A DNA stretch of 64,000 nt from NCBI RefSeq assembly GCF_035456085.1, contig NZ_DATIDY010000040.1, forward strand, positions 7,609-71,608. Direction: 5' to 3'. The translations under genes were made by a program, and so were the position numbers. The DNA is from Flavobacterium sp. Its GTDB lineage: Bacteria; Bacteroidota; Bacteroidia; Flavobacteriales; Flavobacteriaceae. Numbering within the stretch: position 1 is the first letter of the stretch; each line of letters begins with the position of its first letter. Below the pieces are notes generated by a model. It saw nothing but the letters and a program-made list of their open reading frames with translations. It was not told where the DNA came from and did no database searches. Below are positions 19,512 through 22,217 of the stretch, piece by piece.

Positions 19512-19544
19512 AAAAAAAAACGTTTCAATTGCTTGAAACGTTTT
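19512..19544 (-). terminator. Intrinsic terminator of tRNA-Tyr
   Basis: AAAACGTTTCAA-ttgc-TTGAAACGTTTT followed by a long U-tract on -. Confidence 0.8.
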
Positions 19545-19546
19545 AG

Positions 19547-19627
19547 TGGGGAGAGCAGGATTCGAACCTGCGAAGTTCACACAGCAGATTTACAGTCTGC
19601 CCTCGTTGGCCGCTTGAGTATCTCCCC
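19547..19627 (-). tRNA. tRNA-Tyr(GTA), CCA not encoded
   Basis: Minus strand reads GGGGAGA...GCAGA-CTGTAAA-TCTGC...GGTTCGAATCC...TCTCCCC-A: acceptor stem, GTA anticodon, long variable arm and T-loop. Confidence 0.96.
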
Positions 19628-19760
19628 GAGCCTTATTTGGTAATGCTTATTGCGTTATCCGGGTGCAAATATAGAGACACTTTTTAGTTTTACAAACTTT
19701 TTTTGCACTTTATTTTAGTATTATTTTACTATTATTTTTAATGTATTGGTATTGAATAAA

Positions 19761-19790
19761 ATAAAAAATCTCCACTAGGGAGATTTTTTA
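19761..19790 (-). terminator. Terminator downstream of the TlpA domain
   Basis: AAAAAATCTCC-acta-GGGAGATTTTTT hairpin. Confidence 0.65.
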
Positions 19791-19810
19791 TTTTTAAATA
19801 TTACCAAGGC

Positions 19811-20215
19811 TTATTTTCCTAGTAATTCTATGATTTTTGCTTTCAATTCGGCACCTCTTAAATCTTGTGCAACTACATTTCCTGATTGATCAAGGATAAA
19901 TGTTGCTGGAATTGATTCCACTTTGTATTGCATTGCAATTGGTTCTTGCCAACCTTTAAGATTTGAAACCTGTGTCCAAACTAATTTATCTTTTGCAATA
20001 GCTTCTTTCCATTTTACTGGATCTTCGTCTAGAGAAACACCAATTATATTAAGACCTTTTGAATGTAATTCTTTATAAATTGCAACAACATTCGGATTTT
20101 CTTTTCGGCATGGACCGCACCATGAAGCCCAAAAATCAACGATTGTTACTTTTCCTAAACTTTCTTTAAGGCTAATTGTTTTGCCTTCTGTATTAGGAGC
20201 AGAAAAATCTGTTCT
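19811..20215 (-). CDS. TlpA/AhpC-TSA thioredoxin-like domain, in frame behind the UGA of the upstream ORF; not in the ORF track
   Basis: RTDFSAPNTEGKTISLKESLGKVTIVDFWASWCGPCRKENP...IPATFILD...LRGAEL...K*. 405 nt in the same frame; no ATG/GTG/TTG before WCGPC. Confidence 0.88.
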   Translation of the reverse strand, partial: RTDFSAPNTEGKTISLKESLGKVTIVDFWASWCGPCRKENPNVVAIYKELHSKGLNIIGVSLDEDPVKWKEAIAKDKLVWTQVSNLKGWQEPIAMQYKVESIPATFILDQSGNVVAQDLRGAELKAKIIELLGK

Positions 20216-20971
20216 TCATTTAGCTGGAGTACCTGTTGGAGCAGCTGTTGCGCCTACTGAAGGTTGTTTTGCTGCAGCAAGTTTTGTTTTTACATTCTTA
20301 CCGTGTTTAGAATCTTTTAATGAAGCTTCTAAATTATTGAACATCGTTTCAATTTTTTTAGAATCTACAGTTGGATCATTGCTCATCCCTTCAATAATTA
20401 ATAAACTAATGAAAGCTTTTGGATGAGTATTAGCATAATCCACATATTTATTTTTTGAAGTATTACCAATTTCAGTTTGGATTTTAGTGTATTCTTTCAT
20501 TAAGCTATTGATAACAGCAGTATCTTTAGTTTGTTGTGCTGTTTGCATTTTTTGCATGTTAGCATTTTGAAAGTCCATTAAAGGTTTCTGAATTTTTGTG
20601 ATTTCTTCATTAAATTTCACATACTCATCGTTATTGTAAGTACCAGAAATTTTAGATTTTTGAATTGTATCTTTATTTACTACAATTGTAATTTCACCAT
20701 TTTCTAAGATAAATGGAATTTTACCTTGTACTCCTTCAATTTGTAAAGTATGGAAAGCTGGTTCTGTTACTTTTCCTTTAATTTCAAATTTACCGTCTTC
20801 GATTTTTACTGTGTCAACAGGAATTAATCCCATTCCTTTATCATCTTGTGCTTCTAGTACAACTGTTTTTCCGTTTTCAAATCCTTTCGCAGTTCCTGAG
20901 ATAGTGTATTTGTCTTTGCTACAAGAAGTAAGTAAAGCTGTAGCGGTAAGAAATAAAATAATTTTTTTCAT
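20216..20971 (-). CDS. DUF4369 lipoprotein (N-terminal part of an AhpC/TSA-TlpA protein)
   Basis: Lipobox LLTSC, YTISG..DT..GKF..G DUF4369-like start; ends ...PTGTPAK-TGA. Confidence 0.85.
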   Translation of the reverse strand: MKKIILFLTATALLTSCSKDKYTISGTAKGFENGKTVVLEAQDDKGMGLIPVDTVKIEDGKFEIKGKVTEPAFHTLQIEGVQGKIPFILENGEITIVVNKDTIQKSKISGTYNNDEYVKFNEEITKIQKPLMDFQNANMQKMQTAQQTKDTAVINSLMKEYTKIQTEIGNTSKNKYVDYANTHPKAFISLLIIEGMSNDPTVDSKKIETMFNNLEASLKDSKHGKNVKTKLAAAKQPSVGATAAPTGTPAK

Positions 20972-21218
20972 TTTTATTAGTTAATTGTTTTTAAGGTTAC
21001 AAAAGTATTTAAAATTATAAATTAACAATAACTTTAGAACCCTAAATTTATGTTATAATTTTCCTCATTTTAAAGCTATTTGTATAAAGAAATATTGTGT
21101 TTATAATTTTTTTAAATATTATTTTCTTTAAATAGTAATCATTTGAAATTTAATTCCGTGCATGTTTTAAAAGTATTATTTTTTATAGGCTTTTTATTTA
21201 AAAGGTTAGTAAAATAAT

Positions 21219-21437
21219 TTAAAGATTGTATTGATGAAGATATGACTCAATATGCTCAATTTCATTTTGAGTAATTGTAATATCTAAATTTACATCTCTT
21301 AAATCTTTGTTTAAATAAGAACAAACAGGATTATCTTTTAATTTCAAATCGATGTCAGCTTTTATTTGTTTTAGTTTTTCAATTGTTACCAAAGCATTTT
21401 TGTATTGCTTTTGATAGTTTTCAATTTTTTCATTCAT
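21219..21437 (-). CDS. Small coiled-coil hypothetical protein
   Basis: 72-aa ATG ORF with helical heptad character. Confidence 0.6.
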   Translation of the reverse strand: MNEKIENYQKQYKNALVTIEKLKQIKADIDLKLKDNPVCSYLNKDLRDVNLDITITQNEIEHIESYLHQYNL

Positions 21438-21608: not shown

Positions 21609-22049
21609 CTATTCTTGGTTAGTTGTTTTTCTCCAAGGATAAGCATTAAAAATATGTCTTTTTGCAAAACGACCTGGTGAATCTGCATTGACCATTTTTA
21701 CATAAATAGCTTTAGGAACACTGATATATTCGTAAACACTACCATTTGAGAAATTCACGATTAATCTAGATTCAACATATTTATAGTCAGTGATTGTTGA
21801 AGTAGAGATAGTCTCAGTATATTCAGGTAAAAGTTGTTTGATTGTCTCTGGGTTGATGCTTACCAAGAAGTGGTATGCTTCAATTATTTTTTTACTGTTT
21901 TCTTCAGCTTGTTTTAAACCAGCTTCATCACCTTGAAATTTATCGGGATGCGCATCTTTCATCGCATTACGATAGATGGTTTTCAATTCTTTAAGCTCTA
22001 CTGTTTTTTCTACATTTAGTAGTTTGCGGTATTCAACTATTTTTTTCAT
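21609..22049 (-). CDS. J-domain (HPD) plus KTSC domain protein
   Basis: LKTIYRNAMKDAHPDKF...IIEAYHFL (J-like) then LIVNFSNGSVYEYISVPKAIYVKMVNADSPGRF (KTSC). Start set at MKKIV; TACCTTTG -7 box upstream. Confidence 0.85.
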   Translation of the reverse strand: MKKIVEYRKLLNVEKTVELKELKTIYRNAMKDAHPDKFQGDEAGLKQAEENSKKIIEAYHFLVSINPETIKQLLPEYTETISTSTITDYKYVESRLIVNFSNGSVYEYISVPKAIYVKMVNADSPGRFAKRHIFNAYPWRKTTNQE

Positions 22050-22217
22050 AAATAAGGTAACTACTTGTCTTTTACTATTAAACCAAAAAAACTGGTTGGG
22101 TTTCGACAAATTTTTTGCAAAGGTACACTTTTTTTTAACTTTTCCTTTTCGAGCAAAAAAAAAATCAAAAAATGTACTTTTTGATTTTTTATATTATTCT
22201 AAAACTTTAAACAGCTG

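What the first reader, a model, noticed from the sequence alone, without database searches (positions are those of the whole stretch)
19811..20971. In-frame UGA splits a DUF4369-TlpA thiol-disulfide oxidoreductase: candidate programmed stop-codon readthrough
Seen: the lipoprotein ORF ends ...ACT CCA GCT AAA TGA AGA ACA GAT TTT TCT GCT CCT. The same frame continues for 134 codons encoding an intact TlpA domain (WCGPC), with a terminator after it. No ATG/GTG/TTG precedes the active site, so the catalytic domain has no canonical start of its own. The stop lies in an Ala/Pro/Thr/Gly linker (SVGATAAPTGTPAK*RT-DFSAP) that looks longer than the usual G..AP-DF junction. Established: DUF4369+TlpA is normally one polypeptide, and UGA followed by A is a leaky context in bacteria. 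Inference: the gene may make a short non-catalytic lipoprotein plus a 386-aa redox-active isoform by readthrough.
Basis: partly seen in the sequence, partly recalled or inferred. Interest (0 to 1): 0.78.

Follow-up and report, generated by a model that had tools for sequence, protein, structure and literature searches.

The report
Conserved in-frame UGA splits Flavobacterium oxidoreductase
A stop codon (UGA) in the middle of a Flavobacterium lipoprotein gene is not a mutation or an error: it has been kept at exactly this codon across a whole clade of species while the enzyme domain after it stays under strong selection, so some ribosomes almost certainly read through it, which would be a rare case of programmed stop-codon readthrough in a bacterial chromosomal gene.

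Summary
On the minus strand, 20971..19811, a lipoprotein ORF (signal peptide, DUF4369, helical region, Ala/Pro linker) ends at TGA (20218-20216). The same frame runs on for 134 codons through an intact TlpA/ResA-like domain (WCGPC) to TAA.

My first result suggested a one-off TGG>TGA mutation, because 119 of 120 database homologues showed Trp there. That was an artefact. Those proteins come from contigs of 4.3 kb or less, and the DNA of two I checked has TGA.

Read at the DNA level:
- 108 of 109 orthologues (named Flavobacterium species including F. johnsoniae, plus metagenomes) carry TGA at this codon. None has TAA or TAG; one has TTA.
- The next base is always A. The consensus is GCU AAA UGA AGA.
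- The downstream domain is intact in all 93 complete genes, with dN/dS 0.086 at dS of about 1.3.
- 68 of 85 have no start codon before the active site.
- There is no SECIS-like structure and no Cys homologue at the site, and the window otherwise uses code 11.
- The TGA-bearing genes form one clade. The stop lies in a clade-specific linker insertion.

Best reading: programmed UGA readthrough, probably inserting Trp, giving a short and a long isoform. Translation through the stop was not shown experimentally. I found no published report.

The parts
19811..20971 (-). Whole recoded gene: ATG (20971-20969) to TAA (19813-19811), 386 sense codons with one in-frame UGA
   Evidence: orthologues
20921..20971 (-). 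Lipoprotein signal peptide and lipobox (MKKIILFLTATALLTSC)
   Evidence: Pfam LPAM_1 E 3e-5; S16 and C17 are invariant in the 50-sequence alignment
20621..20908 (-). DUF4369 beta-sandwich domain (residues 22-117)
   Evidence: Pfam PF14289 E 1e-21; strands 21-109 in the AF2 model of the 89%-identical P0001
20267..20620 (-). Helical region (about residues 118-235)
   Evidence: helices 115-235, pLDDT about 80-90; dN/dS of the N part 0.18
20219..20266 (-). Ala/Pro/Gly/Thr-rich disordered linker. It contains the remnant of the canonical VGxxAP junction followed by the clade-specific insertion that ends in Lys
   Evidence: pLDDT below 50 for residues 237-252; alignment with canonical-junction homologues; dN/dS 0.47
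20213..20224 (-). Recoding site and its conserved context: GCT AAA TGA AGA. UGA is at 20218-20216 and the invariant +4 A at 20215
   Evidence: position table from 94 unique sequences: TGA 93/94, +4 A 94/94, +5 G 93/94, -1 codon AAA 77 or AAC 16, -4 T 81/94; local peak of synonymous-site conservation
19814..20215 (-). TlpA/ResA-like thioredoxin-fold domain, 134 codons, reachable only by decoding the UGA
   Evidence: Pfam AhpC-TSA, Thioredoxin_8, Redoxin; PDB 3fw2/3fkf align from residue 251; dN/dS 0.086; intact in 93 of 93 complete orthologues
20108..20122 (-). Redox motif WCGPC
   Evidence: W284, C285, P287 and C288 invariant, G286 nearly invariant
21000..21007 (-). TACTTTTG, a Bacteroidetes -7-type promoter motif about 30 nt upstream of the ATG (position is suggestive only)
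   Evidence: the motif is not enriched window-wide (108 found, 111 expected)
19763..19789 (-). Terminator-like hairpin (11-bp stem AAAAAATCTCC/GGAGATTTTTT, loop CTAGT) followed by a T-run, 22 nt after the TAA
   Evidence: read directly; weak hairpin-type Rfam hits at 19758-19827

Best explanation
This is one gene with a conserved, selected in-frame UGA, that is, a programmed stop-codon readthrough site. The proposed sequence of events follows. A single mRNA is translated from ATG 20971. Most ribosomes terminate at UGA 20218-20216 through RF2. That releases a 251-aa lipoprotein made of DUF4369, a helical bundle and a linker. A fraction of ribosomes decode the UGA instead, most likely with near-cognate tRNA-Trp (anticodon CCA), as in phage Qbeta. 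They continue for 134 codons and make a 386-aa lipoprotein that carries a TlpA/ResA-like thiol-disulfide oxidoreductase domain. The signal is local (GCU AAA UGA AGA, with an invariant A after the stop) and does not involve a downstream RNA structure. Shown here: the stop and its context are conserved, the downstream domain is under purifying selection starting right after the stop, the domain has no conserved start of its own, and the TGA-bearing genes have a single evolutionary origin. Inferred: that readthrough is the decoding event, that the inserted residue is Trp, the efficiency, and that both isoforms are functional. RF2 is reported to be scarce and UGA the rarest stop in F. johnsoniae (PMC10798248). 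That could make UGA unusually leaky in this lineage and tie the isoform ratio to RF2 activity.
For: Conservation of the stop:
- TGA is at the identical codon in GTDB genomes of F. chungangense, F. frigoritolerans, F. tiangeerense, F. calami, sp. P21 and sp. FlaQc-57.
- It is in all 97 stop-type junctions of an unbiased metagenome scan.
- Overall 108 genes have TGA, 1 has TTA, and none has TAA or TAG. The true terminal stop of the same genes is TAA in 86, TAG in 7 and TGA in 0.
- PGAP-annotated genomes of dozens of named species, including F. johnsoniae, list only a DUF4369 protein of about 253 aa.

Selection and decoding:
- The downstream domain has dN/dS 0.086 at dS of about 1.27 in 87 unique sequences, which is lower than the N part at 0.18.
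- Amino-acid conservation (R-x-D-F-S-A-P-N) begins at the codon after the stop.
- 68 of 85 sequences have no in-frame ATG, GTG or TTG before the active site.
- Synonymous-site conservation peaks locally at the UGA, and the +4 A is invariant.

Origin and structure:
- The 80 unique TGA-type proteins are monophyletic, and their sister genes have the canonical VGxxAPDF junction.
- In the AF2 model the UGA position is the last residue of a disordered linker, so any near-cognate residue should be tolerated.
- The one natural sense variant is Leu.
- The window's own base call is confirmed by an independent assembly at depth of about 35.
Against: - There is no direct evidence of translation through the UGA. 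No Ribo-seq, proteomic or reporter data could be reached. RNA contigs gave only fragments on either side of the stop.
- UGA followed by A is not avoided at genuine gene ends in neighbouring genes (12 of 27), so the +4 A alone cannot explain special leakiness.
- No stimulatory RNA structure was found, so the efficiency may be only basal.
- The identity of the inserted residue is unknown.
Confidence: 0.72

Rival explanations
1. Selenocysteine insertion: the UGA encodes Sec, directed by a SECIS element.
For: UGA is used exclusively, never UAA or UAG. The protein has a thioredoxin fold, and ResA-like selenoprotein families exist (NCBIfam WAxxUGC and TUGYCR, weak sub-threshold hits).
Against: RNAalifold on 45 diverse sequences (-15..+105) finds no consensus hairpin (E -0.59 against -0.88+-1.45 for shuffles). 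Synonymous constraint vanishes within about 6 codons downstream. Rfam finds nothing at the site. Canonical homologues have I, M, V, A, K, P or L at the aligned position, never Cys. The redox motif WCGPC is intact and the UGA lies in a disordered linker. The one sense variant is Leu. [quoted passage not shown]
Confidence: 0.04
2. Split gene: two separate polypeptides, with the thioredoxin domain started independently (reinitiation or a non-canonical start) after termination at UGA.
For: Gene callers annotate a second ORF of 85-110 aa in some genomes. Bacteroidia do not use Shine-Dalgarno sequences, so start-site rules there are unusual (PMC6847099).
Against: 68 of 85 sequences have no ATG, GTG or TTG between the UGA and the active site, and none is positionally conserved. 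Protein-level conservation and homology to solved TlpA-like structures begin at the residue next to the UGA. A separately started domain would lack the signal peptide and lipid anchor. A mere gene boundary would drift to TAA, which is 75% of stops nearby, but the site is always TGA.
Confidence: 0.08
3. Recent nonsense mutation, pseudogene or base-call error in this genome.
For: At first sight 119 of 120 database homologues have Trp at the site. TGG>TGA is a single transition.
Against: The Trp residues are TGA codons translated with code 4 on short contigs. TGA is present in 108 of 109 orthologues over dS above 1. The downstream domain is under strong purifying selection. An independent assembly confirms the base.
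Confidence: 0.01
4. UGA is decoded by something other than basal near-cognate reading. Candidates are genome-wide reassignment (code 4 or 25), a dedicated suppressor tRNA, or A-to-I editing of the mRNA (UGA to UGG).
For: The strict conservation of UGA and of the flanking AAA/AGA would fit a specific recognition event. None of these could be tested on whole genomes here.
Against: The window is ordinary code 11. It has 6 other genes that end at TGA, and no other ORF-TGA-ORF pair in 64 kb. TGA makes up 7.5% of the stops of neighbouring genes in related loci. No tRNA with a UCA anticodon lies in the window or in 60 related loci, although these cover only a small part of each genome. From my own knowledge, the known bacterial TadA editing motif is UACG in a tRNA-Arg-like loop; it is absent here (AAAUGAAGA).
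Confidence: 0.1

Closest known systems
Phage Qbeta coat protein/A1 readthrough (UGA read by tRNA-Trp at a few percent, giving a C-terminally extended minor protein; from my own knowledge)
   Same: An in-frame UGA, continuation in the same frame, no elaborate RNA structure, a major short product plus a minor extended product with an added domain, and Trp as the probable inserted residue.
   Different: This is a chromosomal gene of a free-living bacterium conserved across a clade of a genus, not a phage gene. The extension is a catalytic redox domain. Readthrough has not been demonstrated.
Canonical DUF4369-TlpA-like thiol-disulfide oxidoreductase lipoproteins of Bacteroidota (e.g. loci L014, L117, L201; PDB 3fw2 and 3fkf for the Trx domain)
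   Same: The same domain order (lipobox, DUF4369, helical region, linker, Trx fold with WCxPC), up to 64% identity, and the same neighbourhood (tRNA-Tyr downstream).
   Different: The canonical genes are one uninterrupted ORF with a VGxxAP-DF junction. The clade studied here has an 8-14 residue insertion that contains the UGA.
Bacterial selenoproteins of the ResA/thioredoxin fold (NCBIfam NF041054 WAxxUGC, NF053656 TUGYCR)
   Same: An in-frame UGA in a thioredoxin-fold protein.
   Different: In those families Sec replaces a redox Cys, a SECIS hairpin follows, and Cys homologues exist. Here the CxxC motif is intact, the UGA is in a linker, no hairpin is present and no Cys homologue exists.
prfB (RF2) programmed +1 frameshift at CUU UGA C, studied in F. 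johnsoniae (PMC10798248)
   Same: A conserved in-frame UGA whose outcome depends on competition with RF2. It occurs in the same organisms, in which RF2 is reported to be scarce.
   Different: That event is a +1 frameshift on a slippery codon. Here the downstream ORF is in the zero frame and there is no slippery sequence.

Membership tests
Programmed stop-codon readthrough | In-frame stop with a long ORF continuing in the same frame | tested here: met
   251 codons, TGA, then 134 codons to TAA. It is the only such case in the window.
Programmed stop-codon readthrough | Stop codon identity and immediate context conserved across species | tested here: met
   TGA in 108 of 109 genes, never TAA or TAG; +4 A in 94 of 94. 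The terminal stop of the same genes varies between TAA and TAG.
Programmed stop-codon readthrough | Downstream region under protein-level purifying selection starting at the stop | tested here: met
   dN/dS 0.086 at dS of about 1.27. The R-x-DFSAPN motif is conserved from codon +1.
Programmed stop-codon readthrough | No independent initiation of the downstream region | tested here: met
   68 of 85 unique sequences have no ATG, GTG or TTG before the active site, and none is positionally conserved. Non-canonical starts cannot be excluded.
Programmed stop-codon readthrough | Extended protein actually made (Ribo-seq, mass spectrometry, Western blot, reporter) | not testable with these tools
   Older runs are available only as assembled contigs, and the RNA contigs are fragmentary. 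No proteomic data were reached.
Bacterial selenoprotein | SECIS stem-loop immediately downstream of the UGA | tested here: not met
   No consensus structure in 45 diverse sequences; no extended synonymous constraint; no Rfam hit.
Bacterial selenoprotein | Cys at the homologous position in non-Sec homologues; Sec in a redox motif | tested here: not met
   Canonical homologues have I, M, V, A, K, P or L there. WCGPC is intact and the UGA lies in a disordered linker.
Bacterial selenoprotein | selA/selB/selC/selD present in the genome | not testable with these tools
   Whole genomes could not be scanned. No tRNA-Sec in the window or in 60 loci. The trait was not detected in Bacteroidetes in PMC1794560.
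DUF4369-TlpA-like lipoprotein oxidoreductase | Lipobox signal, DUF4369 and a thioredoxin fold with CxxC | tested here: met
   Pfam hits, AF2 model, PDB relatives.
DUF4369-TlpA-like lipoprotein oxidoreductase | Single uninterrupted ORF with a G-x-x-A-P-D-F junction | tested here: not met
   Interrupted by UGA within a clade-specific insertion.
UGA-to-Trp codon reassignment (genetic code 4) | UGA common inside conserved genes and not used as a terminator | tested here: not met
   54 ORFs in the window: TAA 38, TAG 9, TGA 7. Six other genes end at TGA, and there is only one internal UGA.
Pseudogene (nonsense mutation) | Lesion is lineage-specific and the downstream sequence evolves neutrally | tested here: not met
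   The lesion is shared by a monophyletic clade of 80 unique proteins. The downstream part is intact in 93 of 93 genes with dN/dS 0.086.

The most novel reading that the evidence does not exclude
Flavobacterium uses a dedicated, context-dependent UGA recoding signal (AAA-UGA-AGA) in a chromosomal gene to set the ratio of a non-catalytic scaffold lipoprotein to its redox-active long form. Because RF2 is scarce and autoregulated in Bacteroidia, that ratio would be a regulated output of release-factor activity, or of a decoding factor not yet known, rather than basal leakiness.
Probability: 0.25. Interest if true: 0.9.

Novelty: new variant of a known kind. Interest (0 to 1): 0.8.

Why it matters
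- To my knowledge, programmed readthrough of a standard stop codon is textbook for RNA phages, viruses and eukaryotes. Apart from Sec and Pyl, it is essentially undocumented for conserved bacterial chromosomal genes. My literature searches found no report for Flavobacterium, Bacteroidetes or DUF4369.
- This case is conserved across a clade that includes the genetically tractable F. johnsoniae, for which Ribo-seq has been published. The question is therefore directly testable.
- It bears on annotation. Reference genomes list the gene as a 253-aa 'DUF4369 protein' and lose the catalytic domain. Metagenomic catalogues list a 'full-length' protein with a spurious Trp, produced by calling short low-GC contigs with code 4.
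- It gives a natural reporter for UGA termination efficiency in a phylum with unusual translation: no Shine-Dalgarno use and low RF2.

Tried and rejected
1. First reading: a one-off TGG>TGA nonsense mutation at a conserved Trp, because 119 of 120 best database homologues had W. I rejected this when Logan contigs of other metagenomes also showed TGA. An N-terminal search then found dozens of 250-aa 'truncated' proteins in complete genomes, and the DNA of two 'W' proteins showed TGA.
2. Exact look-up of the window's 251-aa product in the assembly index found nothing on record.
3. A SECIS or stimulatory RNA structure was not found (alifold and Rfam).
4. RNA and Ribo-seq evidence could not be obtained. 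I used the 96.6%-identical metagenome locus L157 instead. Runs with a high word share laid poorly. The RNA runs gave only 150-nt fragments on either side of the UGA, and none spanned it.
5. I looked for a tRNA-Trp gene (to inspect the D-arm) or a UCA-anticodon tRNA in the window and in 60 loci. Only the syntenic tRNA-Tyr and one tRNA-Arg were present.
6. Avoidance of UGA-A at genuine stops as a sign of leakiness was not seen (12 of 27, small sample).
7. The paper on F. psychrophilum tlpB (PMC1489658) is not held, so I could not check whether this gene relates to tlpB.

Full report
**1. What is in the window**

The feature is a minus-strand gene, ATG 20971-20969 to TAA 19813-19811. Translated in one frame it gives 251 codons, a TGA (20218-20216), then 134 more codons.
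- The first part matches a lipoprotein signal/lipobox (LPAM_1) and DUF4369 (PF14289, E 1e-21).
- The second part matches AhpC-TSA, Thioredoxin_8 and Redoxin (E 4e-21 to 6e-18) and has WCGPC at 20122-20108.
- No in-frame ATG, GTG or TTG lies between the TGA and the active site.
- A hairpin with an 11-bp stem and a T-run follows the TAA (19789-19763).
- A Bacteroidetes-type -7 motif (TACTTTTG, 21007-21000) lies about 30 nt upstream of the ATG. Its position is suggestive only.

The window is an ordinary low-GC (31.9%) code-11 genome. Its 54 long ORFs end in TAA (38), TAG (9) or TGA (7). This is the only place in 64 kb where two long ORF pieces are joined in frame by a TGA.

**2. A false start worth recording**

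The 120 best full-length homologues in the protein collection (68-89% identity) were all about 386 aa. 119 had Trp and one had Leu at the column of the stop. That looked like a trivial TGG>TGA nonsense mutation. Three things overturned it.
- Logan contigs of unrelated metagenomes matched the window's TGA. One identical 801-nt contig had depth of about 35 (X1). A 93.6%-identical contig, and a contig with a different in-frame linker, came from a phyllosphere run (X4). A 98%-identical contig came from a rhizosphere run (X6).
- Searching with only the 251-aa N part returned dozens of DUF4369-only proteins of 248-256 aa. They come from large contigs and complete genomes of named species: F. marginilacus, F. 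aestuarii, F. aquicola, F. gilvum, F. gawalongense, F. faecale and, in a second search, F. johnsoniae, F. pectinovorum, F. aquidurense, F. cupreum, F. soyae and many others. Every 'full-length' protein, by contrast, came from a contig of 4.3 kb or less.
- The DNA behind two 'Trp' proteins (P0001/L081, P0030/L083) has TGA, and the tool itself reports that they do not translate to the database protein.

So the Trp is a gene-calling artefact. My inference is that short low-GC contigs were called with genetic code 4. Only P0016 (L082) has a true sense codon, TTA (Leu).

**3. Conservation at the DNA level**

In the GTDB species representatives F. chungangense, F. frigoritolerans, F. tiangeerense, F. 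calami, sp. FlaQc-57, sp. P21 and three MAGs (62-70% protein identity to the window), the same codon is TGA followed by AGR.

To avoid bias, I scanned the metagenome collection with a pattern that specifies only the downstream DFS[AG]PN..G motif and nothing at the stop. Of 120 loci:
- 97 have [K/N/Q/D]-TGA-A(GA/GG/GT/CT)-x-DF.
- None has TAA, TAG or a sense codon in that junction type.
- 21 have the canonical G-x-x-A-P-D-F junction of other orthologue or paralogue groups.
- 2 are cut by the contig end before the junction.

Pooling everything gives 109 genes: 108 with TGA and 1 with TTA. Among the 93 complete genes:
- The downstream part is always 134-136 intact codons.
- The genuine terminator is TAA (86) or TAG (7), never TGA.
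- So stop-codon turnover occurs at the real end of the gene but never at the internal site. This is despite TGA>TAA being a single transition and TAA making up about 75% of stops in neighbouring genes.

**4. Selection**

For 87 unique nucleotide sequences (64-90% protein identity to the window), median pairwise dN/dS is as follows:

| Region | Median dN/dS |
|---|---|
| N part | 0.18 |
| 25-codon linker | 0.47 |
| Domain after the TGA | 0.086 |

The value for the domain after the TGA was obtained at a median dS of about 1.27. The domain after the stop is therefore the most constrained part of the gene, over a divergence at which synonymous sites are near saturation.

Amino-acid conservation (R/S/T-x-D-F-S-A-P-N) and homology to solved TlpA-like structures (3fw2, 3fkf, ResA) begin at the residue next to the stop. 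Translation in this frame must therefore pass through, or start exactly at, the UGA. In 68 of 85 unique sequences there is no canonical start between the UGA and the active site, and no start is positionally conserved.

**5. The signal**

Per-position counts in 94 unique sequences give the consensus GCU AAA UGA AGA NCA GAU UUU UC:
- +4 A in 94 of 94.
- +5 G in 93 of 94.
- The -1 codon is AAA (77) or AAC (16).
- The synonymous third base of the -2 codon is U in 81 of 94.

A synonymous-site conservation scan shows a local peak (1.2 times expectation, about +2 SD) within about 4 codons of the UGA. It is exceeded only by the start-codon region, and it returns to background by +7 codons. RNAalifold on 45 diverse sequences (-15..+105) finds no consensus structure (E -0.59; column shuffles -0.88+-1.45). 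Rfam finds nothing at the site. The determinant is therefore local sequence and not a SECIS-like or pseudoknot-type element.

UGA-A is not avoided at genuine stops nearby (12 of 27), so the +4 A alone is not a sufficient explanation.

**6. Origin and structure**

In a neighbour-joining tree the 80 unique TGA-type proteins form one clade. Its sister genes have the canonical junction (L201, L117, L014; up to 64% identity).

An AlphaFold2 model of the 89%-identical P0001 (mean pLDDT 82) shows four regions:
- a beta-sandwich (residues 21-109);
- a helical bundle (115-235);
- a disordered stretch (237-252) whose last residue is the UGA position;
- the thioredoxin fold from residue 253.

The inserted residue is thus unlikely to be structurally critical. 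This fits near-cognate decoding and the natural Leu variant.

Synteny is conserved. A DnaJ+KTSC gene lies upstream (window 21609-22109; F. johnsoniae L204), and tRNA-Tyr lies downstream.

**7. Mechanism**

The best-supported reading is programmed UGA readthrough giving two lipoprotein isoforms: a 251-aa non-catalytic form and a 386-aa redox-active form.

From general knowledge of UGA suppression (Qbeta A1, B. subtilis), I propose that tRNA-Trp is the decoder. In F. johnsoniae, RF2 is reported to be much less abundant than RF1, and UGA is the rarest stop at 7% (PMC10798248). That would favour leakiness at UGA and could couple the isoform ratio to RF2 activity. These steps are inference.

Rivals:
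- Selenocysteine is disfavoured. There is no SECIS and no Cys homologue, the CxxC motif is intact, the site is in a linker, and the Sec trait was not detected in Bacteroidetes in PMC1794560.
- Independent initiation is disfavoured (see also section 4).
- A pseudogene or sequencing error is refuted.
- Code reassignment is refuted for the window.
- A dedicated suppressor tRNA or mRNA editing cannot be excluded with these tools, but nothing supports either.

**8. Novelty and limits**

Full-text searches for readthrough or UGA with Flavobacterium or Bacteroidetes, and for DUF4369, found no description of this site. The library does not hold most subscription journals, so absence from it is not proof.

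The kind of mechanism is known (readthrough, Qbeta A1). A clade-wide, selected case in a bacterial chromosomal gene that gates a catalytic domain is, as far as I can tell, new.

The missing piece is experimental: no data available here show ribosomes or protein beyond the UGA.

Noticed in passing
protein collection hits P0001-P0120 and P0207 onward; loci L081, L083: More than 100 public 'full-length' 383-407 aa versions of this protein carry Trp at the UGA. All come from contigs of 4.3 kb or less. The DNA of the two I checked has TGA, so the Trp is probably a code-4 gene-calling artefact on short low-GC contigs. Reference genomes list only a 253-aa DUF4369 protein instead.
   Followed up: yes
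window 19546-19627 (-); about 50 of 60 related loci: A tRNA-Tyr (GTA) gene lies a few hundred bases downstream of this gene in the window and in nearly all related loci, both TGA-type and canonical-junction. The synteny is strongly conserved. I see no link to UGA decoding.
   Followed up: partly
L082:611-1780 (Logan contig of SRR20950789): This is the only orthologue with a sense codon at the site: TTA (Leu), one transversion from TGA, in an otherwise typical member of the clade. It is either a natural constitutive long-form allele or an assembly error.
   Followed up: partly
L007:3001-4162 (Flavobacterium sp. P21, NZ_CP192585.1): In this 'complete genome' the orthologue keeps the TGA but has frame breaks near both ends. 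It is either a true pseudogene or indel errors of the assembly.
   Followed up: no
window 21609-22109 (-): A small DnaJ + KTSC domain protein lies directly upstream, with the same arrangement in F. johnsoniae (L204). A 72-aa ORF without family hits (21219-21437) lies between it and the focal gene.
   Followed up: partly
L009 about 4876 (next gene after the match): A second DUF4369-TlpA-type gene with the canonical GNVAPDF junction lies immediately downstream of the orthologue in a Flavobacterium MAG. The family therefore occurs as tandem paralogues in some genomes.
   Followed up: no
window 19517-19544 (-): A strong terminator-like hairpin (12-bp stem, T-run) lies just after the tRNA-Tyr gene.
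   Followed up: no
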